64,000 bases of DNA from Candidatus Woesearchaeota archaeon. GTDB taxonomy: Archaea > Nanobdellota > Nanobdellia > Pacearchaeales > GW2011-AR1. The DNA is taken from the NCBI GenBank assembly GCA_964447315.1, contig CAYURQ010000001.1:27351-91350 (forward strand), given 5' to 3'. The notes beneath the pieces were generated by a model. The model searched no databases and was not told the origin of the DNA. It saw only the letters and a list, made by a program, of their open reading frames with translations. Each line of letters begins with the position of its first letter. The first letter of the stretch is position 1. Shown one piece after another: positions 26,551-58,343 of this stretch. A program made the translations under genes and the position numbers.

Positions 26551-26596
26551 AATAGTCTCAAATGGATTGTGTTTTATAAGTATTGTTGTCTAGTGA

Positions 26597-27004: not shown

Positions 27005-27116
27005 AAATATAAGTAGGTGAAAATATTTATAAACATTATGATATAATTTATTTGTTATGGTTAAAAAGAGGAAGCACAAATATAAGAGGAAAGCTAAGAA
27101 AAATGGAAAACCCCGT

Positions 27117-27740: not shown

Positions 27741-27810
27741 AAATAGCAAAGCGTATTTTTTTAAATTATATATTAGAATATTTCATATAAAACTAATGTT
27801 TTTTATTCTT

Positions 27811-27833
27811 CATAAGGGAGTGTTGGAATAAAG
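27811..27833 (+). repeat. G/T-rich boundary element (short variant) CATAAGGGAGTGTTGGAATAAAG
   Basis: related to the recurring element at 35678, 40373, 41489 and 46630. Confidence 0.35.
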
Positions 27834-27910
27834 AAAAGTTTATATAATATTAGAACATTAAAATATAGAGGTGATGGAACCTCAAGATTCCCAATTCTTG
27901 AAAAAATACT

Positions 27911-29068: not shown

Positions 29069-29368
29069 ATGAAACTTGAACAAATGACTGGAGAAATTTC
29101 ACAAGCATCTCAAGGAAGGAGCAAATACTTCGTGGTTGGAGATTTAAGTTACTTGTCTGGATCTCATTTATATATGGCTGATGAACTATATATAAAGAAT
29201 TTTAGAGATGGAAGTATACTCCACATTCATGAAGTAGATGGTAGAATCACTGGTGCTAATATTAGGGGCACTAATGATTTAAGAGGGACTCCAATTAGCA
29301 ACTATCAAGCAACAATGTTAGATGTCTTGCCTGGAAGCTCTAGAACAATCATAAAAAACGGATCATAA
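29069..29368 (+). CDS. hypothetical protein (99 aa), operon member
   Basis: start 1 nt after the preceding stop. Confidence 0.4.
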   Translation: MKLEQMTGEISQASQGRSKYFVVGDLSYLSGSHLYMADELYIKNFRDGSILHIHEVDGRITGANIRGTNDLRGTPISNYQATMLDVLPGSSRTIIKNGS

Positions 29369-29369
29369 A

Positions 29370-29612
29370 ATGGTTTCAGAAAAGCAGATTAAGCACGAGC
29401 TTATAGCCATATATTCTAATTATCTTTCCAGTAAAGAGGATAAAAAGAATAGAGAAAAAGGGTATAAGCTTTATACAAAGTATTTCAATGGTGCAGAAAC
29501 TCTTTTTAGAGAAAATGTGAGTACTGCAATTTGGCAAGCCTTTAATCTGTACGAAGGCAAACTAAAAGAATCCAATGCAAAAAAGATTCTTGAAGATCTT
29601 CGCAAGACTTAA
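29370..29612 (+). CDS. hypothetical protein (80 aa), operon member
   Basis: start 2 nt after the preceding stop. Confidence 0.4.
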   Translation: MVSEKQIKHELIAIYSNYLSSKEDKKNREKGYKLYTKYFNGAETLFRENVSTAIWQAFNLYEGKLKESNAKKILEDLRKT

Positions 29613-29661
29613 TTTTTATTTTATTTTTTATTTTTAGATAATAAAATTCATATTTAGAAAA

Positions 29662-30147
29662 ATGAAAAAACAAGAAATACTAGAAGAACTTAAAAAACAA
29701 TTTGAATTAACAAAGAAAAAACTTAATTTCAAAGCTAGTTATGATGAAATAAATAACATGTCCTATATTGAGGATATGGCTTTAAGCCAGGGTTTTGTTA
29801 GTAACCAATTCCCAAGGCAGATGATTAACAGAATTGTTGAAACCTTTTATGGATGGGTTGGAGAGATTTATTCCTGGATTTATACCCCGCAAATGGACCT
29901 TATTCATGGGCATGAGGGAAAAAGACTTTCTGAACAAGAAAAAAAAGAATTACTTAATATGATTGATAGAATTATGTATTTAGTTAGAAAAAATAAAAGA
30001 ATTGCTTTTCAAGGTTTAATTGAAAAACAAGAAGGAGAATTTGTTGATGAATTAGTTGAATTTGATAAAAAATACTTTAATCCTTTTATGTTAAAATATC
30101 ATAAAAAATTTGAGAATATCTGGAAACAAGAAATAGATAAAAATTAA
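29662..30147 (+). CDS. hypothetical protein (161 aa)
   Basis: ORF only. Confidence 0.4.
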   Translation: MKKQEILEELKKQFELTKKKLNFKASYDEINNMSYIEDMALSQGFVSNQFPRQMINRIVETFYGWVGEIYSWIYTPQMDLIHGHEGKRLSEQEKKELLNMIDRIMYLVRKNKRIAFQGLIEKQEGEFVDELVEFDKKYFNPFMLKYHKKFENIWKQEIDKN

Positions 30148-30158
30148 ATATTTTTCAA

Positions 30159-30467
30159 TTAATAAGGTATCTTTTCACCTTCCCTAGAGCAATGCGTGCA
30201 ATTGCCTTCAAGACCACATTCTCCTCCAGAAAGCCTTAATCCTTGTCCAGGAGCATTATAATTTCCTTGATAATATCTACATCTTGGTTCAATAAGAAAT
30301 TCTTGCCATCCTCCTGAAGATCCAAGAGTGCTACGTCTAGATACTTTCATTCCCCCTCGAACTTCAACATCTTTTTCTTTAGAAGTGCAAGTGAATGGAT
30401 GATCATACTTTTCTCTTAAATTTTCCATTACTTCTTTAAGAACTGAATTTGAATATTCATAACTCAT
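30159..30467 (-). CDS. Cys-rich small protein, paralog 1 (start corrected to MSYEYS...)
   Basis: shares KYDHPF[TI]C, F[LF]IEP[RK]C.YY.G and a C-terminal CxxC with the upstream paralog; the corrected start aligns the two N-termini and removes the overlap. Confidence 0.5.
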   Translation of the reverse strand: MSYEYSNSVLKEVMENLREKYDHPFTCTSKEKDVEVRGGMKVSRRSTLGSSGGWQEFLIEPRCRYYQGNYNAPGQGLRLSGGECGLEGNCTHCSREGEKIPY

Positions 30468-30474
30468 TTTTAAA

Positions 30475-30783
30475 TTATACATTTCCTCCATCTGTTTCAC
30501 AGGCTCTGCAAACACTTTTTCCTGGTTTTCCACAAATTCCAGTGTCTCCTCCTGTATATCCTCCCCTATAATAACTACATTTTGGTTCAATAAAGAATTT
30601 TTGATATCCGCTATTACTAGGAGCTGATCCAGGATACCACCTAACAGTCATCCCTCTAACCCGCACCCCTATCTCCTGCGCTTTTTTACTCCCTCCCTTT
30701 GCAAGAATATTTAGATACCCACAAATAAACGGATGATCATATTTTTTTTCCAGATCCTTTTTTATTTCATTAACATCTGACAT
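30475..30783 (-). CDS. Cys-rich small protein, paralog 2
   Basis: tandem paralog of 30159..30467. Confidence 0.5.
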   Translation of the reverse strand: MSDVNEIKKDLEKKYDHPFICGYLNILAKGGSKKAQEIGVRVRGMTVRWYPGSAPSNSGYQKFFIEPKCSYYRGGYTGGDTGICGKPGKSVCRACETDGGNV

Positions 30784-30939
30784 TAAAAAATAATGCTCTT
30801 AATATTTAAATAAATTATTGTACTGAAAAATACTCTTCCTCTAAAACAGTAAACTAAGTAAAACAGATAATACTTCTGTAAAAGACGAAAGATTTAAATA
30901 GTAATATCAATTGATATTATCATAAAAATAGGAGTTAAA

Positions 30940-31218
30940 ATGCCATTATTACAAAAAAGAAATCCAAATGCAAGGTCACCAACATTACAAACAGTATTGA
31001 TGGTTGAAAAATTCATTGAAGAAAATAGTGGAGAGTATAAAAAAACAGAATTGTTCAAAAAACTTCCTAGAAAAGTAATGTGGCAAACATTTCAAATAAT
31101 AGTGCAATATCTTGAAGAAAATTATAAAATAATTATTGGAAAGGATGGAATAGTAACCTACATATGGAATCCAAATTTCTATGAAAAAATTAAAGATAGG
31201 CCAGAGATAAAAATATGA
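30940..31218 (+). CDS. putative antitoxin-like protein (family with a paralog at 59574..59861)
   Basis: overlaps the downstream RelE/YoeB-like gene by 4 nt (ATGA). Confidence 0.4.
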   Translation: MPLLQKRNPNARSPTLQTVLMVEKFIEENSGEYKKTELFKKLPRKVMWQTFQIIVQYLEENYKIIIGKDGIVTYIWNPNFYEKIKDRPEIKI

Positions 31219-31535
31219 AATCAAAGGTTGTTTTTGTTGATAATAGCCTAGAAAAAGCGTTTAATTCTCTTGATGAATCAGACCCTATTAAAAAAGCATT
31301 AATTAGGGCAATAAAAAATATTCAACAAGATCCAAAAGCTGGAAGGAGTGTTATAAAAAGAATGATTCCAGAGAGACTAATTAAGAAATATGGGATAAAT
31401 AACTTGATGATTTACAATTTGCCAAATGCATGGAGAATGTTATATTCAGTAACTACTTCTGGAGATATAGAATTGGTGGCTGTAATACTTGATTGGATGA
31501 ATCACAAGGACTATGAGAGATTATTCAAGTTTTAA
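31215..31535 (+). CDS. RelE/YoeB-like toxin candidate
   Basis: C-terminus ...AWRMLYSV...ELVAVILDWMNHKDYERLF resembles YoeB/RelE (WSRRI..HRLVY.V...L.I..CRYHY). Confidence 0.4.
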   Translation: MKSKVVFVDNSLEKAFNSLDESDPIKKALIRAIKNIQQDPKAGRSVIKRMIPERLIKKYGINNLMIYNLPNAWRMLYSVTTSGDIELVAVILDWMNHKDYERLFKF

Positions 31536-31832
31536 TTATTCTTCATCTTCCTCAAGAACTAGTAAACTAAGTAAAACAATTAATACTCCTGCTATTATAG
31601 AAATTACCCAGCTTAGCCAACCTAACTCTAGAGTCTTAAACTTAATTATTAAAAAACCTGCAATACCAAGCAATCCTATGAATATATAATCTTTTCGTAT
31701 TTTTTCTTTGATAATTGGGGCGTGTTCTGAAAATACATCAAGAATTCCAGTAACAATTACAACAACCAATAATATATTTAAGTTAAGATAAGTGCTAACA
31801 AGTCCTGCCCATATTTGTTCAATCAATAACAA
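31536..31832 (-). CDS. 3-TM small membrane protein, copy 1 of 4
   Basis: near-identical copies at 33542, 36225 and 38237; a divergent relative at 44150. Confidence 0.5.
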   Translation of the reverse strand: MLLIEQIWAGLVSTYLNLNILLVVVIVTGILDVFSEHAPIIKEKIRKDYIFIGLLGIAGFLIIKFKTLELGWLSWVISIIAGVLIVLLSLLVLEEDEE

Positions 31833-31873
31833 TATTAGATAAGTTACTAAGACTGTTTGAAAGATGTGATTTA

Positions 31874-31908
31874 CTAGGGATGCGTTGTGTCTGTGGAAAA
31901 GGGAAAAG
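31874..31908 (+). repeat. G/T-rich element variant CTAGGGATGCGTTGTGTCTGTGGAAAAGGGAAAAG
   Basis: 5' region of the membrane-protein gene; related to 33886..33949. Confidence 0.35.
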
Positions 31909-31937
31909 TTTATAGAATTTTAAATTATTATTAAAAC

Positions 31938-32324
31938 ATGGAAGAAAGAGATGTAATAATTAAGATTTATGATAAAAAAGAAGAAATTAATAAAATAATT
32001 AAAGAATTAAAAAAATATTCATTTGAAGATTACATTAAAACTGGCCATTATGAAATTTCTTTATTAACTAAAGGAACAGATGAAGATAAATTGAGAGAGA
32101 TTTATCCTAAATTTGATATTATAGAATTAATAGCATTGAGGAGGCATAAAAATGGTTATGAGAATTATGATGTTTATTATGAACTTGAAAAAGGAAATTA
32201 TGCTTTGTTTGCCATAAATCTAGAAGGTAAAAAACCTAAAATAGATAATGCATTTATAGCTAATAGAATATTCAAAAATTTCTTAAAATCTATGGTAAAA
32301 AGATATGGTAATAAAATGGTTTAA
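31938..32324 (+). CDS. hypothetical protein (128 aa)
   Basis: duplicated at 36633. Confidence 0.45.
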   Translation: MEERDVIIKIYDKKEEINKIIKELKKYSFEDYIKTGHYEISLLTKGTDEDKLREIYPKFDIIELIALRRHKNGYENYDVYYELEKGNYALFAINLEGKKPKIDNAFIANRIFKNFLKSMVKRYGNKMV

Positions 32325-32656
32325 TTAGTCATGCATTGCATAGGTATATTTGCTATAGGAATTTGTTTTATTCCTGCTTTTTCATCTTCTAATCCCACCC
32401 CAATAAATAATTGATCTCTGCTTGGTTTTACAATAAGATTTAATTTTTCAAAGTCTTTTATTTGTTGTATATTAAACCCTATTGCCTCAAGAAAATTAGA
32501 AAACTCTCTTACTTCTAAACTAACTACTTTTCCGTTTCCAGTAGTGCTAATAATAAAATCTCCAAAGCTAAAATTCTTCTTAACTTTCTCATTATCTTGA
32601 ATAGAAGCCACAATTAAGCTGTCTGTATTCTCATCATATTTAGAGACTTTTATCAT
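32321..32656 (-). CDS. DUF2283-like small protein (111 aa)
   Basis: N-term MIKVSKYDENTDSLIVAS resembles DUF2283 (MKI.YD.EADALYIRL). Confidence 0.35.
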   Translation of the reverse strand: MIKVSKYDENTDSLIVASIQDNEKVKKNFSFGDFIISTTGNGKVVSLEVREFSNFLEAIGFNIQQIKDFEKLNLIVKPSRDQLFIGVGLEDEKAGIKQIPIANIPMQCMTN

Positions 32657-32756
32657 ATTTTATAATAATATTTTGTTTATTTATACCTTTCTATTCATCT
32701 TCTAGAGGCAAGTAAAACATATAAATCTTAATAAATAATTAAAACTCCTTTTCTTA

Positions 32757-33545
32757 ATGGGAATTGATTCATCTGAAGCAAATCAAATAATAAACGCTAT
32801 TGATTTTGTAAATCATCATTATGGAGGTTCTGCAAAAGTTACTGGAGAATTCTTTTGTAAAGACTGTAATGAGAAATTTCCTTCTGGAGAATTTCGTTAT
32901 GATAAAGGAGGGTATATTCCAGGGCCAGGTTTAATTAATTTGTCTTCTGAAAGGGCTGCATTTCCCCTTCATGAGTTTCATACTGTTCTTGCTTTAAAAG
33001 ATTCTGATGAGATCTATGAAAAAAGAGTGATTTTAGACTTATTTAATAAATCAAGAAACTGGAATTTTTATGATGTTCCAGAAAGATGCTTTGAGGATTA
33101 TATGAAAATAATGAAAACAAGCTCACTAATTTCTATTGCTAGTCTAGAAGCTAATCATTGGTGTTATTCACTTCATTCAACACCAGATTTTACAGAAGAA
33201 GAAATGCTGGAGGATCCTATTAAAAGGGATATTCTAGAAATGGATAGGAAGATTAATCTTAGGCCAAATAAATTAGAAAATGAGGTTAAACCAGAAATAA
33301 ATCGGGTTTTCAAAGACATAATTGGTAATAGAGAAATTCCAATAATTTATATTATTCCAGAAGAATTTAGAGGAGATTTTGGAGAGGAATATTATAAAAG
33401 GGATTTTATTGAAGCAACATACAATACTTTTAAAGCAAAGAACATACTTTTTCCAGATGAAAAAAGAAATTCTGTTATTAAAATAATTGATTCTTACTTT
33501 AAAGAAGCAGAATTAAAGCATGAAAGACACCCTTCTCCTTTTTAG
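32757..33545 (+). CDS. hypothetical protein (262 aa)
   Basis: duplicated at 37452. Confidence 0.45.
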   Translation: MGIDSSEANQIINAIDFVNHHYGGSAKVTGEFFCKDCNEKFPSGEFRYDKGGYIPGPGLINLSSERAAFPLHEFHTVLALKDSDEIYEKRVILDLFNKSRNWNFYDVPERCFEDYMKIMKTSSLISIASLEANHWCYSLHSTPDFTEEEMLEDPIKRDILEMDRKINLRPNKLENEVKPEINRVFKDIIGNREIPIIYIIPEEFRGDFGEEYYKRDFIEATYNTFKAKNILFPDEKRNSVIKIIDSYFKEAELKHERHPSPF

Positions 33546-33844
33546 GATTCTTCATCCTCTTCTAAAACAAGTAAACTAAGTAAAACAATTAATACTCCTG
33601 CAACAAGAGATATTACCCATGACAACCATCCTAATTCTAGTGTTTTAAACTTGATTATCAGGAAACCTGCAATACCAAGCAATCCTATAAATATGTAATC
33701 TTTAGGTTTTATTTTTTCTTTAATAATTGGAGCGTGTTCTGAAAATACATCAAGAATTCCAGTAACAATTACAACAACTAATAAGATATTTAAGTTAAGA
33801 TAAGTGCTAACAAGTCCTGCCCATATTTGCTCAATTAATAACAA
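33542..33844 (-). CDS. 3-TM small membrane protein, copy 2 of 4
   Basis: ~90% identical to copy 1. Confidence 0.5.
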   Translation of the reverse strand: MLLIEQIWAGLVSTYLNLNILLVVVIVTGILDVFSEHAPIIKEKIKPKDYIFIGLLGIAGFLIIKFKTLELGWLSWVISLVAGVLIVLLSLLVLEEDEES

Positions 33845-33885
33845 TATTAGATAAGTTACTAAGACTGTTTGAAAGGTGTGATTTA

Positions 33886-33949
33886 CTAGGGATGTGTTGT
33901 GTCCACGGAATAGGAGGTGTTGGAGTGAGGGTTTGGGAATGTTGATAGG
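33886..33949 (+). repeat. G/T-rich element (GGGTTGGAATGTTGATAGG subfamily)
   Basis: shares GGGTT(T)GG(G)AAT(A)TGTTGATAGGAT with 58344..58409 and 59472..59524. Confidence 0.4.
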
Positions 33950-33960
33950 ATTATTTTAAT

Positions 33961-34602
33961 TTATATAGAAGAATTAATATCTCCATGCACTACTAATGAT
34001 TGATAATTTTCAAATAAGAAAGGGGCATAAAATTGGGCTTCTGGAAAATCTTTAGTTGTACTTAGATACCAAATATTCTCTTCCATTTTATCTTTAGCTC
34101 TTTCAACTGACTTTTCTATAGTAGAACCTTCTATTAATGCTTTAACAAGGATATTTGAGGGTTCTAAAAATAATTTTGCTATTTTATCTCTTCTTGGAGA
34201 TGCCTCCTGATTAGGATCTTTCCCAAGATTAAAATCTCTCTCATATCCAATAAAACAAATGGCTCCTTTAGTAACTATTATCTTCCCTAGTTTTTGTCCT
34301 GATGAACAAGTTAGGGAATAAACAACCATGCCTGAAAGAACTTTTGCATTTTCTTTAGAGATTATTATCTCATTTTTATGCCCAGCAATCAAATCAGGAT
34401 TACCATGCCCATTAAACATAATAAAATCTGGTTTTTGCTTTTTTATAATTTTTAAGATTTCTTTTTTATTTGCTTTTTCTCTTTCCCTATTTATTGTTTT
34501 GTTTCCTCTTTCTTTCGAATATTTAACTAATTCTTTACTATAATAATATAAATAAGAGAGGGTCCCATCATGCTCGGGTCTGGAAAAAATAATATTACTC
34601 AT
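33961..34602 (-). CDS. clan CD cysteine peptidase-like protein (minimal caspase/legumain-like fold)
   Basis: hydrophobic strand + His-Gly (FIMFNGHG), then 34 aa later hydrophobic strand + Cys (VVYSLTCSSGQ); this is the His/Cys dyad arrangement of caspase/legumain/gingipain. Confidence 0.45.
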   Translation of the reverse strand: MSNIIFSRPEHDGTLSYLYYYSKELVKYSKERGNKTINREREKANKKEILKIIKKQKPDFIMFNGHGNPDLIAGHKNEIIISKENAKVLSGMVVYSLTCSSGQKLGKIIVTKGAICFIGYERDFNLGKDPNQEASPRRDKIAKLFLEPSNILVKALIEGSTIEKSVERAKDKMEENIWYLSTTKDFPEAQFYAPFLFENYQSLVVHGDINSSI

Positions 34603-34604
34603 AA

Positions 34605-34841
34605 TTATTGTTTTACTAAAAAACCTCTTTTGAAAGCTTTAAGATAGTTTAATTGGATTTCAACTATTCTATTTCCAATATCTGTATTATCTTCTATGTT
34701 TTTTATCAACTCATCTCTTTTCATAAATTTTCCATCAGACATTCCAAATGAAACACTTACATTTGGGGAAGCCTGCCTAATTCTTTCTATGACTATTTCT
34801 TTCTTTAACTGATCTATATTCTCTTGTTTATTTTCTTTCAT
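34605..34841 (-). CDS. hypothetical protein (78 aa), operon member
   Basis: stop 3 nt before the peptidase-like gene start. Confidence 0.4.
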   Translation of the reverse strand: MKENKQENIDQLKKEIVIERIRQASPNVSVSFGMSDGKFMKRDELIKNIEDNTDIGNRIVEIQLNYLKAFKRGFLVKQ

Positions 34842-35020
34842 ATTATTTCTAACTCTTTTAGTATTTTTAATATTTTCTCTCCATTTTCTGTCTTATTCTT
34901 TATTTCTTGGTAAGCAAGATTCCAACTTATTGGATTTTTATCTATAATTACTATTGTATTGTTTCTTTCTTTTATAGGCACTCCAGAATAAACTTTAAAG
35001 AAATCTTCTTCATTTACCAT
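34838..35020 (-). CDS. hypothetical protein (60 aa), first gene of operon
   Basis: 4-nt overlap with the next gene. Confidence 0.35.
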   Translation of the reverse strand: MVNEEDFFKVYSGVPIKERNNTIVIIDKNPISWNLAYQEIKNKTENGEKILKILKELEII

Positions 35021-35203
35021 TATTAAATTAGTAAATTAATCTTTTTAATTTTTGTCATTTCTTTTTCCTCGGCTTATTCCAATAAGGACTTTGGGGTTTC
35101 ATGAAACACTGAAGAGAAAAGGATATTTAAATGCTGTTTTTTGGAGTGTGGGTAAAACAATTCATCTTAATCTATATATTTTTTAATTAATGATTCTATA
35201 ATT

Positions 35204-35464
35204 TTAATTATACACTTTATCTCTTTTATCAATTTTTACTATCAAAATTATTTTCTGAGCTTCTTTAATTTTATATAATGCTCTAAAGTACCCAATTCTA
35301 TACCTAAAAACCATCTCATTATTATCTCTCCCAATAAACTTTGAATCACTTGGTACAGGAGTATTTTCAAGGTTTTTTAATCTCTTTTCAATCCTTTCTC
35401 TTTCTTTGGTATCTAATTTGTTTAAAAAATCCTGGGCTTTAACAGACAGCTCTACAGAATACAT
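35204..35464 (-). CDS. relE: RelE/ParE-family toxin
   Basis: MYSVELSVKAQDFLNKLDTKERERIEKRLKNLENTP...FRYRIGYFRALYKI...IILIVKIDKRDKVY matches the RelE/ParE consensus throughout. Confidence 0.75.
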   Translation of the reverse strand: MYSVELSVKAQDFLNKLDTKERERIEKRLKNLENTPVPSDSKFIGRDNNEMVFRYRIGYFRALYKIKEAQKIILIVKIDKRDKVYN

Positions 35465-35465
35465 T

Positions 35466-35627
35466 TTACAGTCTCTTTGTTCTGCCTTCTTTTAAATCTT
35501 CTTCAGCTTGATTTAAAGAGTTTATGTCGTCTTGGGTTAGAGTTACATCTATTATGTGCTCCTTTAAAGAATCCATATCTTTTTTTAAATTGTCTAGTTT
35601 ACTTATGATTAATTCTTCGTTTTCCAT
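35466..35627 (-). CDS. putative antitoxin (53 aa, not in the supplied ORF track)
   Basis: MENEELIISKLDNLKKDMDSLKEHIIDVTLTQDDINSLNQAEEDLKEGRTKRL; stop 1 nt before the relE start. Confidence 0.5.
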   Translation of the reverse strand: MENEELIISKLDNLKKDMDSLKEHIIDVTLTQDDINSLNQAEEDLKEGRTKRL

Positions 35628-35677
35628 ATCTTCCAATATAAAAATAACTATATAATCTTTTCGTATTTTTTATTTTT

Positions 35678-35715
35678 CATAAGGGGTGTTGGTTGGAGCA
35701 TTTTAGGGAGTATTG
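35678..35715 (+). repeat. G/T-rich boundary element CATAAGGGGTGTTGGTTGGAGCATTTTAGGGAGTATTG
   Basis: marks the end of duplicated unit 1; recurs at 40373, 41489 and 46630. Confidence 0.6.
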
Positions 35716-35781
35716 TAAATTAAAAAAAAAGAAATAATTAGCAGAACAATCAAAAAAAATTAGAAAAGATATGGAAAGAAT

Positions 35782-36189
35782 CTACAAAATTTCTTTTAAA
35801 TAATTAGATAAATTTAAATCCCTAATTTCTTGTTTTCTTAACCATTTATAATCTTCATGTTCTTTACTTAACTTAACATTCTCTGGTTTTTCATGAGTTT
35901 TTAATATATATATTATTCTTAAAAGATGAACTTTTTTCCCTTGTTTCTCATATTCTTTACTTAATATTCTATAGATTGAAACTATTTCTGTATCGAGACT
36001 TGTTTCTTCCTTAACTTCTCTAAGTACAGCTTCAGAAGGATCTTCTCCAAATTCAACTCTTCCTCCAGGAATTTCCCATTCTCGAGAACCATCTACTTCT
36101 TTTGAATTTCTTTTAAGAAAAAGAAACTTATCTTGTATCTGAATCAATCCATTTGCTAAAATATTTGTTTTTTTCTTAATTTCTGACAT
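35782..36189 (-). CDS. Nudix hydrolase
   Basis: Nudix box GGRVEFGEDPSEAVLREVKEETSL. Confidence 0.8.
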   Translation of the reverse strand: MSEIKKKTNILANGLIQIQDKFLFLKRNSKEVDGSREWEIPGGRVEFGEDPSEAVLREVKEETSLDTEIVSIYRILSKEYEKQGKKVHLLRIIYILKTHEKPENVKLSKEHEDYKWLRKQEIRDLNLSNYLKEIL

Positions 36190-36224
36190 GTTTTAATAAA
36201 AGAATACATTTTATTTAAGGTTTT

Positions 36225-36527
36225 CTAATCTTGTTGTTCACCTTCTTCTAAAACAAGCAAACTAAGTAAAACAATTAATACTCCTGCTATTATAGAAATT
36301 ACCCAGCTTAGCCAACCTAACTCTAGAGTCTTAAACTTAATTATTAAAAAACCTGCAATACCAAGCAATCCTATGAATATATAATCTTTTCGTATTTTTT
36401 CTTTGATAATTGGGGCGTGTTCTGAAAATACATCAAGAATTCCAGTAACAATTACAACAACCAATAATATATTTAAGTTAAGATAAGTGCTAACAAGTCC
36501 TGCCCATATTTGTTCAATCAATAACAA
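36225..36527 (-). CDS. 3-TM small membrane protein, copy 3 of 4
   Basis: C-terminus differs from copy 1 (EEGEQQD vs EEDEE) at the duplication junction. Confidence 0.5.
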   Translation of the reverse strand: MLLIEQIWAGLVSTYLNLNILLVVVIVTGILDVFSEHAPIIKEKIRKDYIFIGLLGIAGFLIIKFKTLELGWLSWVISIIAGVLIVLLSLLVLEEGEQQD

Positions 36528-36632
36528 TATTAGATAAGTTACTAAGACTGTTTGAAAGATGTGATTTACTAGGGATGCGTTGTGTCTGTGGAAAAGGGAA
36601 AAGTTTATAGAATTTTAAATTATTATTAAAAC

Positions 36633-37019
36633 ATGGAAGAAAGAGATGTAATAATTAAGATTTATGATAAAAAAGAAGAAATTAATAAAATAATTAAAGA
36701 ATTAAAAAAATATTCATTTGAAGATTACATTAAAACTGGCCATTATGAAATTTCTTTATTAACTAAAGGAACAGATGAAGATAAATTGAGAGAGATTTAT
36801 CCTAAATTTGATATTATAGAATTAATAGCATTGAGGAGGCATAAAAATGGTTATGAGAATTATGATGTTTATTATGAACTTGAAAAAGGAAATTATGCTT
36901 TGTTTGCCATAAATCTAGAAGGTAAAAAACCTAAAATAGATAATGCATTTATAGCTAATAGAATATTCAAAAATTTCTTAAAATCTATGGTAAAAAGATA
37001 TGGTAATAAAATGGTTTAA
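36633..37019 (+). CDS. hypothetical protein (128 aa), duplicate
   Basis: identical to 31938..32324. Confidence 0.45.
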   Translation: MEERDVIIKIYDKKEEINKIIKELKKYSFEDYIKTGHYEISLLTKGTDEDKLREIYPKFDIIELIALRRHKNGYENYDVYYELEKGNYALFAINLEGKKPKIDNAFIANRIFKNFLKSMVKRYGNKMV

Positions 37020-37351
37020 TTAGTCATGCATTGCATAGGTATATTTGCTATAGGAATTTGTTTTATTCCTGCTTTTTCATCTTCTAATCCCACCCCAATA
37101 AATAATTGATCTCTGCTTGGTTTTACAATAAGATTTAATTTTTCAAAGTCTTTTATTTGTTGTATATTAAACCCTATTGCCTCAAGAAAATTAGAAAACT
37201 CTCTTACTTCTAAACTAACTACTTTTCCGTTTCCAGTAGTGCTAATAATAAAATCTCCAAAGCTAAAATTCTTCTTAACTTTCTCATTATCTTGAATAGA
37301 AGCCACAATTAAGCTGTCTGTATTCTCATCATATTTAGAGACTTTTATCAT
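37016..37351 (-). CDS. DUF2283-like small protein, duplicate
   Basis: identical to 32321..32656. Confidence 0.35.
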   Translation of the reverse strand: MIKVSKYDENTDSLIVASIQDNEKVKKNFSFGDFIISTTGNGKVVSLEVREFSNFLEAIGFNIQQIKDFEKLNLIVKPSRDQLFIGVGLEDEKAGIKQIPIANIPMQCMTN

Positions 37352-37451
37352 ATTTTATAATAATATTTTGTTTATTTATACCTTTCTATTCATCTTCTAG
37401 AGGCAAGTAAAACATATAAATCTTAATAAATAATTAAAACTCCTTTTCTTA

Positions 37452-38240
37452 ATGGGAATTGATTCATCTGAAGCAAATCAAATAATAAACGCTATTGATT
37501 TTGTAAATCATCATTATGGAGGTTCTGCAAAAGTTACTGGAGAATTCTTTTGTAAAGACTGTAATGAGAAATTTCCTTCTGGAGAATTTCGTTATGATAA
37601 AGGAGGGTATATTCCAGGGCCAGGTTTAATTAATTTGTCTTCTGAAAGGGCTGCATTTCCCCTTCATGAGTTTCATACTGTTCTTGCTTTAAAAGATTCT
37701 GATGAGATCTATGAAAAAAGAGTGATTTTAGACTTATTTAATAAATCAAGAAACTGGAATTTTTATGATGTTCCAGAAAGATGCTTTGAGGATTATATGA
37801 AAATAATGAAAACAAGCTCACTAATTTCTATTGCTAGTCTAGAAGCTAATCATTGGTGTTATTCACTTCATTCAACACCAGATTTTACAGAAGAAGAAAT
37901 GCTGGAGGATCCTATTAAAAGGGATATTCTAGAAATGGATAGGAAGATTAATCTTAGGCCAAATAAATTAGAAAATGAGGTTAAACCAGAAATAAATCGG
38001 GTTTTCAAAGACATAATTGGTAATAGAGAAATTCCAATAATTTATATTATTCCAGAAGAATTTAGAGGAGATTTTGGAGAGGAATATTATAAAAGGGATT
38101 TTATTGAAGCAACATACAATACTTTTAAAGCAAAGAACATACTTTTTCCAGATGAAAAAAGAAATTCTGTTATTAAAATAATTGATTCTTACTTTAAAGA
38201 AGCAGAATTAAAGCATGAAAGACACCCTTCTCCTTTTTAG
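37452..38240 (+). CDS. hypothetical protein (262 aa), duplicate
   Basis: identical to 32757..33545. Confidence 0.45.
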   Translation: MGIDSSEANQIINAIDFVNHHYGGSAKVTGEFFCKDCNEKFPSGEFRYDKGGYIPGPGLINLSSERAAFPLHEFHTVLALKDSDEIYEKRVILDLFNKSRNWNFYDVPERCFEDYMKIMKTSSLISIASLEANHWCYSLHSTPDFTEEEMLEDPIKRDILEMDRKINLRPNKLENEVKPEINRVFKDIIGNREIPIIYIIPEEFRGDFGEEYYKRDFIEATYNTFKAKNILFPDEKRNSVIKIIDSYFKEAELKHERHPSPF

Positions 38241-38539
38241 GATTCTTCATCCTCTTCTAAAACAAGTAAACTAAGTAAAACAATTAATACTCCTGCAACA
38301 AGAGATATTACCCATGACAACCATCCTAATTCTAGTGTTTTAAACTTGATTATCAGGAAACCTGCAATACCAAGCAATCCTATAAATATGTAATCTTTAG
38401 GTTTTATTTTTTCTTTAATAATTGGAGCGTGTTCTGAAAATACATCAAGAATTCCAGTAACAATTACAACAACTAATAAGATATTTAAGTTAAGATAAGT
38501 GCTAACAAGTCCTGCCCATATTTGCTCAATTAATAACAA
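38237..38539 (-). CDS. 3-TM small membrane protein, copy 4 of 4
   Basis: identical to 33542..33844. Confidence 0.5.
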   Translation of the reverse strand: MLLIEQIWAGLVSTYLNLNILLVVVIVTGILDVFSEHAPIIKEKIKPKDYIFIGLLGIAGFLIIKFKTLELGWLSWVISLVAGVLIVLLSLLVLEEDEES

Positions 38540-38655
38540 TATTAGATAAGTTACTAAGACTGTTTGAAAGGTGTGATTTACTAGGGATGTGTTGTGTCCA
38601 CGGAATAGGAGGTGTTGGAGTGAGGGTTTGGGAATGTTGATAGGATTATTTTAAT

Positions 38656-39297
38656 TTATATAGAAGAATTAATATCTCCATGCACTACTAATGATTGATA
38701 ATTTTCAAATAAGAAAGGGGCATAAAATTGGGCTTCTGGAAAATCTTTAGTTGTACTTAGATACCAAATATTCTCTTCCATTTTATCTTTAGCTCTTTCA
38801 ACTGACTTTTCTATAGTAGAACCTTCTATTAATGCTTTAACAAGGATATTTGAGGGTTCTAAAAATAATTTTGCTATTTTATCTCTTCTTGGAGATGCCT
38901 CCTGATTAGGATCTTTCCCAAGATTAAAATCTCTCTCATATCCAATAAAACAAATGGCTCCTTTAGTAACTATTATCTTCCCTAGTTTTTGTCCTGATGA
39001 ACAAGTTAGGGAATAAACAACCATGCCTGAAAGAACTTTTGCATTTTCTTTAGAGATTATTATCTCATTTTTATGCCCAGCAATCAAATCAGGATTACCA
39101 TGCCCATTAAACATAATAAAATCTGGTTTTTGCTTTTTTATAATTTTTAAGATTTCTTTTTTATTTGCTTTTTCTCTTTCCCTATTTATTGTTTTGTTTC
39201 CTCTTTCTTTCGAATATTTAACTAATTCTTTACTATAATAATATAAATAAGAGAGGGTCCCATCATGCTCGGGTCTGGAAAAAATAATATTACTCAT
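38656..39297 (-). CDS. clan CD cysteine peptidase-like protein, duplicate
   Basis: identical to 33961..34602. Confidence 0.45.
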   Translation of the reverse strand: MSNIIFSRPEHDGTLSYLYYYSKELVKYSKERGNKTINREREKANKKEILKIIKKQKPDFIMFNGHGNPDLIAGHKNEIIISKENAKVLSGMVVYSLTCSSGQKLGKIIVTKGAICFIGYERDFNLGKDPNQEASPRRDKIAKLFLEPSNILVKALIEGSTIEKSVERAKDKMEENIWYLSTTKDFPEAQFYAPFLFENYQSLVVHGDINSSI

Positions 39298-39299
39298 AA

Positions 39300-39536
39300 T
39301 TATTGTTTTACTAAAAAACCTCTTTTGAAAGCTTTAAGATAGTTTAATTGGATTTCAACTATTCTATTTCCAATATCTGTATTATCTTCTATGTTTTTTA
39401 TCAACTCATCTCTTTTCATAAATTTTCCATCAGACATTCCAAATGAAACACTTACATTTGGGGAAGCCTGCCTAATTCTTTCTATGACTATTTCTTTCTT
39501 TAACTGATCTATATTCTCTTGTTTATTTTCTTTCAT
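39300..39536 (-). CDS. hypothetical protein (78 aa), duplicate
   Basis: identical to 34605..34841. Confidence 0.4.
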   Translation of the reverse strand: MKENKQENIDQLKKEIVIERIRQASPNVSVSFGMSDGKFMKRDELIKNIEDNTDIGNRIVEIQLNYLKAFKRGFLVKQ

Positions 39537-39715
39537 ATTATTTCTAACTCTTTTAGTATTTTTAATATTTTCTCTCCATTTTCTGTCTTATTCTTTATTT
39601 CTTGGTAAGCAAGATTCCAACTTATTGGATTTTTATCTATAATTACTATTGTATTGTTTCTTTCTTTTATAGGCACTCCAGAATAAACTTTAAAGAAATC
39701 TTCTTCATTTACCAT
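39533..39715 (-). CDS. hypothetical protein (60 aa), duplicate
   Basis: identical to 34838..35020. Confidence 0.35.
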   Translation of the reverse strand: MVNEEDFFKVYSGVPIKERNNTIVIIDKNPISWNLAYQEIKNKTENGEKILKILKELEII

Positions 39716-39898
39716 TATTAAATTAGTAAATTAATCTTTTTAATTTTTGTCATTTCTTTTTCCTCGGCTTATTCCAATAAGGACTTTGGGGTTTCATGAA
39801 ACACTGAAGAGAAAAGGATATTTAAATGCTGTTTTTTGGAGTGTGGGTAAAACAATTCATCTTAATCTATATATTTTTTAATTAATGATTCTATAATT

Positions 39899-40159
39899 TT
39901 AATTATACACTTTATCTCTTTTATCAATTTTTACTATCAAAATTATTTTCTGAGCTTCTTTAATTTTATATAATGCTCTAAAGTACCCAATTCTATACCT
40001 AAAAACCATCTCATTATTATCTCTCCCAATAAACTTTGAATCACTTGGTACAGGAGTATTTTCAAGGTTTTTTAATCTCTTTTCAATCCTTTCTCTTTCT
40101 TTGGTATCTAATTTGTTTAAAAAATCCTGGGCTTTAACAGACAGCTCTACAGAATACAT
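39899..40159 (-). CDS. relE: RelE/ParE-family toxin, duplicate
   Basis: identical to 35204..35464. Confidence 0.75.
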   Translation of the reverse strand: MYSVELSVKAQDFLNKLDTKERERIEKRLKNLENTPVPSDSKFIGRDNNEMVFRYRIGYFRALYKIKEAQKIILIVKIDKRDKVYN

Positions 40160-40160
40160 T

Positions 40161-40322
40161 TTACAGTCTCTTTGTTCTGCCTTCTTTTAAATCTTCTTCA
40201 GCTTGATTTAAAGAGTTTATGTCGTCTTGGGTTAGAGTTACATCTATTATGTGCTCCTTTAAAGAATCCATATCTTTTTTTAAATTGTCTAGTTTACTTA
40301 TGATTAATTCTTCGTTTTCCAT
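40161..40322 (-). CDS. putative antitoxin (53 aa), duplicate
   Basis: identical to 35466..35627 by the +4695 offset. Confidence 0.5.
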   Translation of the reverse strand: MENEELIISKLDNLKKDMDSLKEHIIDVTLTQDDINSLNQAEEDLKEGRTKRL

Positions 40323-40372
40323 ATCTTCCAATATAAAAATAACTATATAATCTTTTCGTATTTTTTATTTTT

Positions 40373-40436
40373 CATAAGGGGTGTTGGTTGGAGCATTTTA
40401 GGGAGTATTGGGGGAGGAAGGGAAAAGTAGATAAAT
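40373..40436 (+). repeat. G/T-rich boundary element (long form)
   Basis: ...GGAGCATTTTAGGGAGTATTGGGGGAGGAAGGGAAAAGTAGATAAAT; the GGGAAAAGTAGATAAAT tail is shared with 41489..41554. Confidence 0.6.
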
Positions 40437-40591
40437 ATTCATTAAACAATAATATCACAATGAGAAAAAGTTTATATATCCCGCATTGTTTGATAAATTA
40501 TGAGAGTAAAATGGGGGGTGAATGTATTTTCTGAAAGATAGTTTTATAAATATAATTAAATCTCTCTTTTATAAAGATTTTAAGTAAAAAA

Positions 40592-40846
40592 ATGGAACAG
40601 CAATTTATGACAAATAATTCAGATAATTTGCAAGAACTCTTTGATTCTAAAAAAAATGAAGTTGTTTCTCTTTGTAAGGAAGTTGCTGAAAATGAATTTG
40701 ACTTATTTGAATTTAATCTTTTCTTAGCTTCTATGGGGAAGAAAAAATTAGATGAATCTACTAAGAAAGTAAGAGAACTTAGAAAGAAAGTAGATAAAGG
40801 AAAGATTGATTTAACAAAAGACGAAGATATGTTGGATGATTATTAA
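40592..40846 (+). CDS. hypothetical acidic protein (84 aa)
   Basis: ORF only. Confidence 0.35.
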   Translation: MEQQFMTNNSDNLQELFDSKKNEVVSLCKEVAENEFDLFEFNLFLASMGKKKLDESTKKVRELRKKVDKGKIDLTKDEDMLDDY

Positions 40847-41427
40847 TGCCTTTTCTTTTTATTAGAATGTTTATTTTTTGAAAAATTTCTTAACATCTTA
40901 TTTACCTCTTGTTCTGATCCAGGTTCTATAATTGTTGGTACATCCAAATCAATATTTAAATAATTACAAGGATCTTGAAAATCTCTTCTATTATTTGTTG
41001 AGATGCAATTTATTCCAGCAATACAATATACAGATATTATTCTTAAATCATTATCCCCTGCCTTCCAATTATTGTCTTTTCTTTCTGTTTTTAGTTTGTC
41101 AAAAAGTGCATTTACCTTGGCTTGATTTACATCTTTCTTTTTTATGGGTTTTATCCTATTTCTTCTTAAAAAATTAAAGATTTCTCTTTTATTTAATTCT
41201 TTATCTGGATTCTTTTTAGATAACAGATTTAATAATTCACTAAAAACAATATAATTTGTATGAAGAAAATTGCCTCTTTTTGCAATTCTAGGCCTATATC
41301 CCCAAGTTCCTTTTTCATTTTCCATCCAAGAAAAAGAGTTATCTGTATCTAAACCAATTTTTCTTAAAATTTTATTTCTTGCTACAACTCTTTCCATATG
41401 AATAACCTTCTTTTTCTTATTATCCAT
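40843..41427 (-). CDS. hypothetical basic protein (194 aa; start moved to MDNKKKK)
   Basis: the listed N-terminal extension to 41610 is translation of the G/T-rich element. Confidence 0.4.
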   Translation of the reverse strand: MDNKKKKVIHMERVVARNKILRKIGLDTDNSFSWMENEKGTWGYRPRIAKRGNFLHTNYIVFSELLNLLSKKNPDKELNKREIFNFLRRNRIKPIKKKDVNQAKVNALFDKLKTERKDNNWKAGDNDLRIISVYCIAGINCISTNNRRDFQDPCNYLNIDLDVPTIIEPGSEQEVNKMLRNFSKNKHSNKKKRH

Positions 41428-41488
41428 TATTTGTTTAATCAAACTAAATTTAAAAATATATAGCAAGATTAAAGAATTTTTTATTTTC

Positions 41489-41554
41489 CATAGGGGGTGT
41501 TGGTTGGAGCATTTGGGGGAGTGTTTGGAGGGAGAGAGGGAAAAGTAGATAAAT
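41489..41554 (+). repeat. G/T-rich boundary element (long form)
   Basis: CATAGGGGGTGTTGGTTGGAGCATTTGGGGGAGTGTTTGGAGGGAGAGAGGGAAAAGTAGATAAAT. Confidence 0.6.
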
Positions 41555-46413: not shown

Positions 46414-46629
46414 AATTATCAAAACCATTCCAAGTTTAAATGTATTACTATGATAATATACTCACATAAATTTATAAACTATATATATCTATAATATATT
46501 ACTATGAGTAACTACAAACCCAAAACAAGATATTGTTCTAAGTGCCTTCAGAGTATAGATGAAACCAAAGATGATTATGTTATGTTAATTAGTAAAACAG
46601 GGCAAAAAATTAAAGAATTTTTTATTTTC

Positions 46630-46666
46630 CATAGGGGGTGTTGGTTGGAGCATTTTAGGGAGTATT
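46630..46666 (+). repeat. G/T-rich boundary element CATAGGGGGTGTTGGTTGGAGCATTTTAGGGAGTATT
   Basis: fourth copy of this family. Confidence 0.6.
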
Positions 46667-46718
46667 ATCAATTAAACAAAAAGAAATAATTTAAATAGAA
46701 TATTTAGTATCTCTTATT

Positions 46719-56450: not shown

Positions 56451-56505
56451 GTAAATATATTCTTAATTTATGTATATAAATGTTATGTTTTGTTGTAATT
56501 TAGAA
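56287..56505. repeat. direct repeat, copy 1 (~215 bp, near-identical to 58084..58297)
   Basis: covers the 5' two-thirds of the gene plus its upstream region. Confidence 0.7.
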
Positions 56506-57914: not shown

Positions 57915-57970
57915 GAATTTAATTCCATAAACAAAATTAGCTACACCAATATATACAGAAACTCTCTTTT

Positions 57971-58318: not shown

Positions 58319-58343
58319 GTGGTTGGAATATTTTAAGAGAATT

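What the first reader, a model, noticed from the sequence alone, without database searches (positions are those of the whole stretch)
31564..40410. Two essentially identical 4.15-kb copies of a TA/protease/membrane-protein cassette
Every ORF in 31564..35715 recurs with identical translation exactly 4695 bp downstream, at 36259..40410. Each copy carries a RelE toxin with a small antitoxin, a 60aa-78aa-213aa operon ending in a clan-CD peptidase-like protein, two copies of a 3-TM membrane protein, a DUF2283-like gene and two ORFans.

Identity starts inside the 3' end of the membrane-protein gene, so the two copies have different C-termini (EEDEE versus EEGEQQD). It ends precisely at a G/T-rich element. 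The copies are separated by a unique Nudix gene, and copy 2 is followed by a different unique module. This looks like two cassettes that share a conserved body with a variable tail, produced by very recent duplication or recombination.
Basis: seen in the sequence. Interest (0 to 1): 0.7.

Follow-up and report, generated by a model that had tools for sequence, protein, structure and literature searches.

The report
Recent 4.15-kb duplication in DPANN archaeon
A 4,152-base stretch carrying ten genes occurs twice, letter for letter, in the variable region of a tiny (DPANN) archaeal genome; both ends lie inside older repeated gene fragments, so it looks like an ordinary, very recent recombination-driven duplication, not a new kind of element.

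Summary
Window 31564-35715 and 36259-40410 are identical: 4,152 bp, 0 mismatches, offset 4,695 bp, separated by a 543-bp unique spacer with a Nudix gene.

The host is a DPANN archaeon, on a 104-kb NCBI MAG contig.

Both ends of the identical tract lie inside older, diverged repeats:
- Left end: the 3' end of a multi-copy membrane-protein gene ("M").
- Right end: the "G/T-rich element". This is the 3' end of a small Zn-ribbon-like gene (GT61). It is intact at 46504-46689 and survives as three 5'-truncated remnants.

The two copies share an identical GT core but continue into two different GT61-type flanks, so one junction is recombinant.

Best reading: one recent ectopic homologous-recombination event (gene conversion or double crossover) between two paralogous loci.

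I found no integrase, no attC-like hairpin, and no plasmid or virus relatives.

Whether the assembly has the right copy number could not be tested without reads. The kind of event is ordinary; interest is low to moderate.

The parts
31564..35715 (.). Copy 1 of the identical 4,152-bp tract (R)
   Evidence: Exact match to 36259-40410, 0 mismatches. Logan contigs L001 and L002 from SRR7048221 reproduce 31834-33563 and 33846-35712 at 100%.
36259..40410 (.). Copy 2 of the identical 4,152-bp tract (R)
35716..36258 (.). 543-bp unique spacer (N). It holds the type-A GT61 3' flank, the Nudix gene 35782-36189 (-) and the private 3' tail of M1b.
31536..31832 (-). M1a membrane-protein gene. The left boundary of copy 1 lies 28 nt into its 3' end. 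The frame is open upstream to about 31919.
36225..36527 (-). M1b membrane-protein gene. Its body is identical to M1a. Its last ~30 nt are only about 75-80% identical, and the downstream sequence is unrelated.
33542..33844 (-). M2, an older paralog of M1 inside R (repeated at 38237-38539). About 90% nucleotide identity to M1, with mostly synonymous differences.
31938..33545 (.). Segment A: 128-aa (+), 111-aa (-) and 262-aa (+) genes of unknown function (repeated at 36633-38240)
   Evidence: No Pfam, NCBIfam or PADLOC hits. The 262-aa protein has only 12 clusters of relatives.
33961..35020 (-). Conserved DPANN operon 60 aa - 78 aa - 213 aa (repeated at 38656-39715). The 213-aa protein has the clan-CD caspase/gingipain fold.
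35062..35092 (-). 31-nt remnant of the 3' end of a Zn-ribbon gene (repeated at 39757-39787). 94% identical to the end of the intact 50-aa gene 46276-46428.
35204..35636 (-). Type II toxin-antitoxin pair: 56-aa antitoxin candidate (35466-35636) and 86-aa RelE/ParE toxin (35204-35464). Repeated at 39899-40331.
   Evidence: Pfam ParE_toxin E 6.4e-7 and Gp49 E 9e-6. The genes are adjacent on the same strand.
35665..35739 (+). GT remnant c1: 5'-truncated 3' end of a GT61-family gene with a type-A flank. The right boundary of copy 1 lies inside it at 35715.
40360..40439 (+). GT remnant c2: core identical to c1, then a type-B flank from 40411
41465..41550 (+). GT remnant c3: 5'-truncated, type-B flank, directly upstream of a minus-strand PIN-like gene (40843-41427)
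46504..46689 (+). Intact 61-aa GT61 gene (CxxC...HxGC), which contains GT copy c4. It is transcribed divergently from the intact 50-aa Zn-ribbon gene 46276-46428 (-).
30843..30881 (-). Short remnant of an M-gene 3' end, left of copy 1
30940..31535 (+). Second two-gene module (92 aa + 106 aa, weak ParE-like) that abuts copy 1
   Evidence: Homologous pairs flank the protease operon in L017.

Best explanation
The two copies are a real and very recent ectopic duplication in the variable region of a DPANN archaeal chromosome, made by homologous recombination.

Before the event, two nearby loci each had an M-family membrane-protein gene on the left and a truncated 3' remnant of a GT61-family gene on the right, with different content in between.

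A non-reciprocal exchange then copied everything between these two homology arms from one locus into the other. This could have been gene conversion, or a double crossover with a sister chromosome or a DNA copy from a sibling cell. About 270 bp of M gene and about 50 bp of GT core served as the arms. The transfer carried along a second M paralog, three ORFans, the conserved 60-78-213 clan-CD protease operon and a RelE/ParE toxin-antitoxin pair.

The parts of the arms that were not converted remain as the 'variable tails'.

What is shown: the identity, the location of both boundaries inside older homologous sequence, and the recombinant nature of one right-hand junction.

What is inferred: the single-step mechanism, the direction of transfer (not decidable), and that the assembly reports the true copy number.
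For: 1. There are 4,152 bp with 0 mismatches. The older paralogs M1 and M2 inside the same tract are only about 90% identical, with mainly synonymous changes. The event is therefore far younger than the family.

2. Left end: M1a and M1b stay alignable for about 30 nt beyond the boundary at only about 75-80% identity. They become unrelated after their stop codons. The tract therefore ends inside a shared gene, not at an arbitrary point.

3. Right end: the GT core is identical in c1 and c2. The c1 flank matches that of the intact gene c4 (type A). The c2 flank matches c3 and resembles the homolog in L037 (type B). One core joined to two flank lineages means one junction is recombinant.

4. Both arms belong to locally multi-copy, co-oriented families. 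There are four M copies plus a remnant and a diverged 160-aa relative. There are four GT copies, against 0 expected by chance.

5. Only 4,152 of the 4,695-bp period is repeated, so a plain tandem duplication does not fit.

6. There is no recombinase, attC-like structure, plasmid or virus signature.

7. The 60-78-213 operon occurs once per locus in 27 GTDB DPANN genomes and in L004-L008. In L004 it lies beside RNase HII-SMC, as it does here. R therefore contains native chromosomal genes.
Against: - No reads were available, so the copy number is taken from a metagenome assembly. A 4.15-kb perfect repeat cannot be spanned by short reads, and an assembler can emit R-N-R from graph topology alone.
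- No close relative with the pre-event arrangement was found, so the ancestral state of the recipient locus is hypothetical.
- A 50-bp right-hand arm is short for homologous recombination.
- Two perfect 4-kb direct repeats 543 bp apart should be unstable, which is uncomfortable unless the event is extremely recent or selected.
- A Logan contig from SRR7048221 (L009) runs through the left boundary without branching. That could hint at a single in-edge in that sample. However, it also crosses k-mers shared with M2 and ends with M2-type bases, so the contig is a simplified path and is not informative.
Confidence: 0.6

Rival explanations
1. Assembly artefact, or a copy number that was never resolved. 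The de Bruijn graph contains one collapsed R node with a loop edge (the Nudix spacer). The assembler traversed the loop once. The true genome might have one R, with the loop coming from a co-existing strain variant, or it might have more than two copies.
For: - The source is a metagenome-assembled contig.
- The repeat is perfect and far longer than short reads or inserts.
- In the Logan short-read assembly of SRR7048221, the region falls apart exactly at the M genes and at the GT core.
- L009 crosses the left boundary unbranched.
Against: - The spacer is joined to the right end of R on one side and to the left end of R on the other. Any single linear genome containing both junctions plus the two outer junctions needs at least two copies of at least the ends of R.
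- The c2 junction (A-like core followed by a B flank) cannot be produced by a k-mer chimera with c3. They share only a 21-nt exact run, and the switch point lies elsewhere.
- Presence or absence of window proteins in Logan is patchy everywhere, so it says nothing about the spacer.
Confidence: 0.2
2. A two-step route. First, unequal crossing-over between M paralogs made a full tandem duplication (R-N-R-N-...). Then a deletion between two GT copies removed the second spacer and whatever followed it.
For: - Direct M and GT repeats are available as substrates.
- Unequal crossing-over between direct repeats is the classic route to tandem duplication (established knowledge).
Against: - It needs two events within a time in which not one substitution accumulated in 2 x 4,152 bp.
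- It still requires a recombinant GT junction. It therefore explains nothing beyond the one-step model.
Confidence: 0.1
3. R plus the spacer (4,695 bp) is a circular episome, or an amplifiable unit that integrated by a single Campbell-type crossover into a chromosomal R. It would be stabilised by its RelE/ParE module.
For: - A single crossover between a circle [R + spacer] and a chromosomal R reproduces the observed order and both hybrid ends exactly (inference geometry).
- The unit carries a toxin-antitoxin pair.
Against: - No replication or integration gene was recognised in the unit.
- There is no similarity to known plasmids, phages or IMG/VR contigs.
- R contains an operon that is chromosomal and single-copy across DPANN.
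- The circle's own origin would itself require the duplication.
Confidence: 0.05
4. A site-specific cassette system, either integron-like or an integrative element targeting the GT61 gene, in which the G/T element acts as the recombination site.
For: - Four co-oriented copies of a ~50-nt element separate blocks of variable, TA-rich cargo.
- Two independent 5' truncations of GT61 lie within 11 nt of each other.
Against: - The element has no hairpin potential on either strand (z-scores +0.2 to +1.9 and -0.4).
- There is no tyrosine or serine recombinase among the ORFs scanned across 22-64 kb.
- The truncated 3' fragments lie upstream of the intact gene. This is the wrong side for successive integrations into that gene's 3' end.
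- The left boundary of the duplication is in a different repeat (the M gene).
- The element is found nowhere else in the GTDB representatives or the metagenome contig set.
Confidence: 0.03

Closest known systems
Ectopic gene conversion / homology-bounded segmental duplication between dispersed paralogs in prokaryotic genomes
   Same: - The copied tract is perfectly identical.
- Its ends fall inside older, more diverged homologous sequence.
- One junction is a visible hybrid of two paralog lineages.
- No dedicated mobility gene is present.
   Different: - The tract is long (4.15 kb, ten genes) relative to the arms, especially the ~50-bp right arm.
- It sits in a DPANN archaeon with a streamlined genome.
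- It doubles an operon that occurs once per locus in the 32 other DPANN loci examined.
Tandem duplication-amplification between direct repeats (RecA-dependent unequal crossing-over, as between IS or rrn copies in bacteria)
   Same: - The copies are direct repeats close together.
- Repeated sequences lie at the join points.
- The product should be unstable and able to loop out a 4,695-bp circle.
   Different: Only 88% of the period is repeated. The second copy is not followed by the spacer, so a single unequal crossover does not give this structure.
Integron cassette arrays (including those reported in Archaea; recalled from my own knowledge, not checked here)
   Same: Short co-oriented repeats separate small, often toxin-antitoxin-bearing, variable gene blocks.
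   Different: - The repeat is coding sequence, not an imperfect palindrome.
- It does not fold.
- No integrase was found.
- The other boundary of the duplication is a different repeat.
Clan CD cysteine peptidases (gingipain C25, CHAT, separase, metacaspase, legumain). Applies to the 213-aa cargo protein only.
   Same: - His66 (in NGHG) and Cys99 are invariant across 35 homologs.
   Different: - It is a minimal 213-aa single-domain protein.
- It scores below the Pfam C25 threshold.
- It is always encoded after two tiny genes (60 and 71-78 aa).
- It is restricted to DPANN in the searches made.

Membership tests
Simple tandem duplication | The whole repeat period is present twice, head to tail | tested here: not met
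   Identity covers 4,152 of the 4,695-bp period. Sequence after copy 2 (from 40411) is unrelated to the spacer after copy 1.
Homology-bounded gene conversion / ectopic recombination | Both tract ends lie within sequence that stays homologous, but is diverged, beyond the tract | tested here: met
   Left: the M1a and M1b tails are alignable at about 75-80% for about 30 nt. Right: the end lies inside the GT61-family 3' end, and both flanks are GT61-type lineages.
Homology-bounded gene conversion / ectopic recombination | A junction that combines markers of two paralog lineages | tested here: met
   c1 and c2 share one core. The c1 flank groups with c4, and the c2 flank groups with c3 and L037.
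Homology-bounded gene conversion / ectopic recombination | A precursor (unconverted) state of the recipient locus seen in a relative | tested here: inconclusive
   No close relative was recovered. There were 0 GT-element hits in GTDB representatives and 1 chance hit in the metagenome contigs. The nearest operon homologs (78-80% aa) lack the other genes.
Integron cassette array | attC: an imperfect inverted repeat that folds as a single-stranded hairpin | tested here: not met
   Folding energies are no better than shuffles on either strand for c1, c3 and c4. There are no inverted repeats at these sites.
Integron cassette array | An adjacent IntI-type tyrosine recombinase | tested here: not met
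   No Phage_integrase hit in the Pfam scans of 60 window ORFs, spanning the window but concentrated in 22-64 kb. The remaining 40 kb of the source contig was not visible.
Integrative element with a duplicated att site in a target gene | Integrase gene, and displaced 3' gene fragments lying downstream of the reconstituted gene | tested here: not met
   No integrase was found. The three 3' fragments lie upstream (to the left) of the intact + strand gene 46504-46689.
Type II toxin-antitoxin, RelE/ParE superfamily | Toxin matches the family profile above its curated threshold | tested here: met
   PF05016 ParE_toxin, 30.3 bits (cutoff 23). PF05973 Gp49, 26.1 bits (cutoff 23.9).
Type II toxin-antitoxin, RelE/ParE superfamily | A small antitoxin gene immediately upstream in the same operon | tested here: met
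   The 56-aa ORF 35466-35636 ends 1 nt before the toxin start, on the same strand. It matches no antitoxin family, so its role is inferred from position.
Clan CD cysteine peptidase | Caspase-hemoglobinase fold | tested here: met
   [not shown]
Clan CD cysteine peptidase | Conserved catalytic His and Cys following consecutive central beta-strands | tested here: inconclusive
   H66 (N64-G65-H66-G67, after strand 60-64) and C99 (after strand 93-97) are invariant in 35 sequences. Residue-level superposition on a known dyad was not done.
Pfam Peptidase_C25 (gingipain family) | Score at or above the gathering threshold | tested here: not met
   16.6 bits against a cutoff of 23, E 0.0048, 72 residues only.
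   No Pfam family at E<=0.05 or at E<=10. Nothing relevant in the PDB sequences.
Nudix hydrolase (spacer gene) | A match to the Pfam NUDIX profile above threshold | tested here: met
   PF00293, 64.8 bits (cutoff 21.1). MutT-like NCBIfam hits are below the equivalog cutoffs.

The most novel reading that the evidence does not exclude
The 29-47 kb region could be a recombination-based 'cargo-swapping' zone. Conserved gene ends would act as portable homology arms, letting blocks of cargo be copied or exchanged between loci, and perhaps between cells, without any dedicated recombinase. The arms would be the co-oriented M genes on the minus strand and the GT61 3' remnants on the plus strand. The cargo would be toxin-antitoxin pairs, Nudix, a PIN-like gene, ORFans and even a core protease operon. 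The 4.15-kb duplication would then be one such event caught in the act.

Three observations are compatible with this reading but do not demonstrate it:
- GT61 was truncated twice independently, within 11 nt.
- Each remnant abuts a minus-strand toxin-type module.
- An unrelated organism's GT61 homolog also sits beside a wHTH/Abi-like pair.
Probability: 0.1. Interest if true: 0.6.

Novelty: new member of a known kind. Interest (0 to 1): 0.3.

Why it matters
If real, this is a clean snapshot of how a streamlined, host-dependent archaeon can still remodel its genome. Homologous recombination between short paralogous gene ends copied ten genes, about 4 kb, in one step. It doubled an operon that occurs once per locus in the 32 other DPANN loci examined.

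It also warns annotators in two ways. The 'conserved intergenic element' here is a gene remnant. And perfect multi-kb repeats in MAGs need read-level confirmation.

The by-product may be of more lasting interest than the duplication. It is a DPANN-wide three-gene operon without any Pfam family, encoding a minimal caspase/gingipain-fold protein with an invariant His and Cys.

Tried and rejected
1. Integron or attC reading. The GT element does not fold on either strand and no integrase was found.

2. tRNA or ncRNA att site. There are no tRNAs and no Rfam hits in the window.

3. Known mobile element. The 4,695-bp unit has no match in PLSDB plasmids or INPHARED phages. The 262-aa and 213-aa proteins have no relatives in IMG/VR.

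4. Finding the GT element elsewhere. A degenerate 26-nt pattern gave 0 hits in the GTDB representatives. It gave one unrelated chance hit in the metagenome contigs.

5. Inferring copy number from the Logan assembly of SRR7048221.
- The contig ends are explained by shared 31-mers.
- L009 is a simplified mosaic path.
- Exact-protein presence in Logan is patchy over the whole window.
- Result: inconclusive.

6. A close relative via the HIT protein cluster (P0251). It has a different genomic context and no DNA was available.

7. Direction of transfer from the GT cores. I first read c2 as the hybrid. The L037 homolog shows that an A-like core with a B-like flank can be natural, so the direction is undecidable.

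8. Defence-system labels. PADLOC hit only the Nudix (PDC-S07 candidate) and nothing in R.

9. Literature. A search for the accession SRR7048221 found nothing, and a search for DPANN duplications and islands found nothing specific.

10. Function of the 262-aa ORFan. It has 12 relative clusters and no Pfam family. Its homolog sits next to a Xer-like recombinase and eIF5A in two MAGs. No conclusion.

Full report
**1. The observation**

Comparing each base of 31000-36600 with the base 4,695 positions downstream gives one uninterrupted run of identity. It covers 31564-35715 = 36259-40410: 4,152 bp with no mismatch and no gap. All ORFs inside recur with identical translations. The finding is confirmed at exactly the stated coordinates.

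The two copies are separated by 543 bp of unique sequence (35716-36258). This spacer carries a Nudix gene on the minus strand (PF00293, E 1e-17).

**2. The host**

- The window has about 27% G+C.
- It opens with an archaeal information-processing cluster: a single-chain Rpb2-type RNA polymerase subunit, a 1,163-aa Rpb1-type subunit, EF-2, and an eEF1A-type factor with the GTP-eEF1A_C domain. These are followed by SMC, RNase HII and a DUF1616 protein.
- Homologs of the cassette proteins come from MAGs labelled Nanoarchaeota, Pacearchaeota, Woesearchaeota and Micrarchaeota.
- Exact-sequence look-ups place the window's proteins on one NCBI contig of 104,207 bp.

The organism is therefore a DPANN archaeon known from a metagenome-assembled genome. 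The duplicated region lies in a block (about 28-47 kb) of small, poorly conserved genes and toxin-type modules. This block sits between the SMC/RNase HII genes and a polysaccharide-biosynthesis cluster.

**3. Anatomy of the repeated unit**

Read left to right, R contains the following.
- The body of a minus-strand membrane-protein gene, M1.
- A 128-aa, a 111-aa and a 262-aa gene with no family assignment.
- A second M gene, M2.
- A minus-strand operon of 60, 78 and 213 aa.
- A 31-nt remnant of a Zn-ribbon gene.
- A minus-strand pair made of a 56-aa ORF and an 86-aa RelE/ParE toxin. The toxin hits PF05016 at 30.3 bits (cutoff 23) and PF05973 at 26.1 bits.
- The first 51 nt of the 'G/T-rich element'.

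**4. The left boundary**

The M family has four copies here (two per R). There is also a ~40-nt 3' remnant at 30843-30881 and a diverged 160-aa relative at 44150-44632.

M1a and M1b are identical from their 5' ends down to 31564/36259. For the last ~30 nt of the gene they are still alignable, but only about 75-80% identical. After the stop codons they are unrelated. The identical tract therefore ends inside a gene that both loci already shared.

M1 and M2, by contrast, are about 90% identical. Their 5' half is about 97% identical and their 3' half about 85%. The differences are mostly synonymous. The family is thus old and under purifying selection, while the R duplication is very young.

**5. 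The right boundary**

The G/T-rich element occurs four times on the plus strand, where none is expected by chance.

The fourth copy (c4) is simply the 3' end of an intact 61-aa ORF, 46504-46689. This ORF has a CxxC...HxGC pattern and its C-terminus reads ...EFFIFHRGCWLEHFREYYQLNKKK. The gene has one cluster of homologs elsewhere (68% identity), so it is a real but rare gene, which I call GT61.

Copies c1, c2 and c3 are 5'-truncated remnants of such genes.

A five-way alignment shows two flank lineages:
- c1 and c4 continue into the same downstream sequence (type A).
- c2 and c3 share a different G-rich continuation (type B). The homolog in L037 resembles type B.

Because c1 and c2 have identical cores but flanks from two lineages, one of the two junctions must be a recombinant. 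I could not decide which one. My first reading, that c2 is the hybrid, is undermined by L037, where an A-like core precedes a B-like flank.

**6. History inside R**

In the intact locus, a 50-aa Zn-ribbon gene (46276-46428, minus strand) and GT61 are divergent neighbours. In R, only the last 31 nt of a Zn-ribbon paralog (35062-35092, 94% identical) and the last ~75 nt of a GT61 paralog survive. The RelE/ParE pair lies between them.

The toxin-antitoxin pair thus sits where the middle of such a gene pair used to be. This was an older insertion or replacement event. The duplication later copied its product wholesale.

**7. Mechanism**

A plain tandem duplication would repeat the whole 4,695-bp period, but only 4,152 bp are repeated.

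The simplest single event that gives the observed structure is an ectopic, non-reciprocal homologous exchange. It would be gene conversion, or a double crossover with a sister chromosome or a DNA copy from a sibling cell. The two loci each had an M gene on the left and a GT61 remnant on the right. The observed structure has perfect identity inside, diverged homology just outside both ends, and one hybrid junction.

The alternatives are:
- unequal crossing-over followed by a deletion (two events with no intervening substitution);
- Campbell-type integration of a 4,695-bp circle, which fits geometrically but lacks any replication or integration gene and any plasmid or virus similarity;
- a site-specific cassette system.

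The cassette system is disfavoured for these reasons:
- The element does not fold on either strand.
- No integrase or transposase appears among the ORFs scanned.
- There are no tRNA or Rfam features.
- The truncated fragments lie on the wrong side of the intact gene.
- The left boundary uses a different repeat.

**8. Is it an assembly artefact?**

This is the main open risk. I could not map reads.

The only independent data are Logan short-read contigs from SRR7048221:
- They reproduce 25979-31863, 31834-33563 and 33846-35712 at 99.97-100% identity.
- The L002 end at 35712 is explained by a 31-mer shared with c4, and the L009/L001 junction at 31834-31863 lies in sequence shared between M1 and M2. 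The L001 end at 33563 has no such explanation.
- L009 is a simplified mosaic path. It ends with two M2-type bases.
- Exact-protein presence in Logan is patchy across the whole window.

No copy-number inference is therefore possible from these contigs.

One point argues against a pure artefact. The spacer is joined to R's right end on one side and to R's left end on the other. A single linear genome that also contains both outer junctions needs two copies of at least the ends of R.

I put about 0.75 on a real two-copy structure, summed over the three real-copy models above (0.6 + 0.1 + 0.05), and about 0.2 on mis-resolved copy number or a strain mixture.

**9. The cargo**

The 213-aa protein has at least 192 homologs, none with a Pfam domain. 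With a 35-sequence alignment, AlphaFold gives pLDDT 95.9.

- then separases, metacaspases, legumain and caspases.

His66 (in NGHG) and Cys99 are invariant.

The 60-78-213 gene order is conserved in all but two of the 32 related loci examined. These come from Woesearchaeota, Pacearchaeota, Nanoarchaeota, Micrarchaeota and Iainarchaeum. The operon occurs once per locus, and none of the other R genes lies within 8 kb of it. In L004 the operon lies next to RNase HII-SMC, as it does here.

R therefore carries native chromosomal genes, and this genome is unusual in having that operon twice. The 'DUF2283-like' label for the 111-aa gene found no support.

**10. Verdict**

It is best explained as a very recent duplication, bounded by homology, in the plastic region of a DPANN genome. 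This is a known kind of event in a new place. The caveat is that copy number in a MAG must be confirmed with reads.

The element at the right boundary is a gene remnant, not a recombination signal. Interest is low to moderate.

The most novel reading still open is that the co-oriented M and GT61 ends serve as reusable homology arms for swapping cargo. I give this about 10%.

Noticed in passing
[not shown]
   Followed up: partly
window 31833-31919 and 33845-33931 (minus strand), with copies at +4695: The M genes' reading frames stay open and conserved (FHRHNASLVNH... / FRGHNTSLVNH...) about 25 codons upstream of the first ATG/GTG/TTG. This stretch matches the N-termini of the 125-130-aa homologs. 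No canonical start codon exists there: M1 has ATA where the homologs have ATG. Either a non-canonical start is used or the N-terminal helix is lost.
   Followed up: partly
window 35062-35739 compared with 46276-46689: The RelE/ParE pair sits between the last 31 nt of a Zn-ribbon gene and the last ~75 nt of a GT61 gene. It appears to have replaced the middle of a paralogous Zn-ribbon/GT61 divergent gene pair. Remnant c3 likewise abuts a minus-strand PIN-like gene. In L037 the GT61 homolog sits beside a wHTH + Abi-like pair.
   Followed up: partly
window 3983-7474 (+): A single 1,163-aa ORF carries Rpb1 domains 1-5. The RNA polymerase A' and A'' parts, which from my own knowledge are usually separate genes in archaea, appear fused. 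The same 1,163-aa gene is seen in L005-L007.
   Followed up: no
window 56222-56491 vs 58018-58284; 58347-58389 vs 59481-59523: Further local repeats, 85-88% identical and including a 125-nt exact stretch at 56289-56413 = 58085-58209. They cover the 5' parts and upstream regions of two small minus-strand genes (128 aa and 115 aa), next to an AAA_14/DUF4143 ATPase and a Fic/DOC gene. This is another pair of paralogous modules in the same contig.
   Followed up: no
window 56640-62804: A dense run of toxin-type genes: two Fic/DOC proteins (58349-59428, 61944-62804), a HEPN + nucleotidyltransferase pair (59858-60981) and an AAA_14/DUF4143 ATPase (56640-57914).
   Followed up: no
window 30159-30783 (minus strand): Two adjacent, partly overlapping ORFs (143 aa and 102 aa) are paralogs of each other (55-nt repeat at 76%, shared ...FIEP[KR]C.YY.G.Y... 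motif) and have no family assignment.
   Followed up: no
window 44629-45132 (-): The HIT-family protein falls in the same 90%-identity cluster as a protein on a JGI contig with a completely different gene neighbourhood (between AspRS and SerRS). This suggests either strong conservation or transfer.
   Followed up: partly
loci L039, L040: The closest full-length homolog (58%) of the 262-aa ORFan lies directly upstream of a Xer-like tyrosine recombinase and eIF5A in two other MAGs. Three more distant relatives carry the domain at the C-terminus of 640-670-aa proteins that have no Pfam domains.
   Followed up: partly
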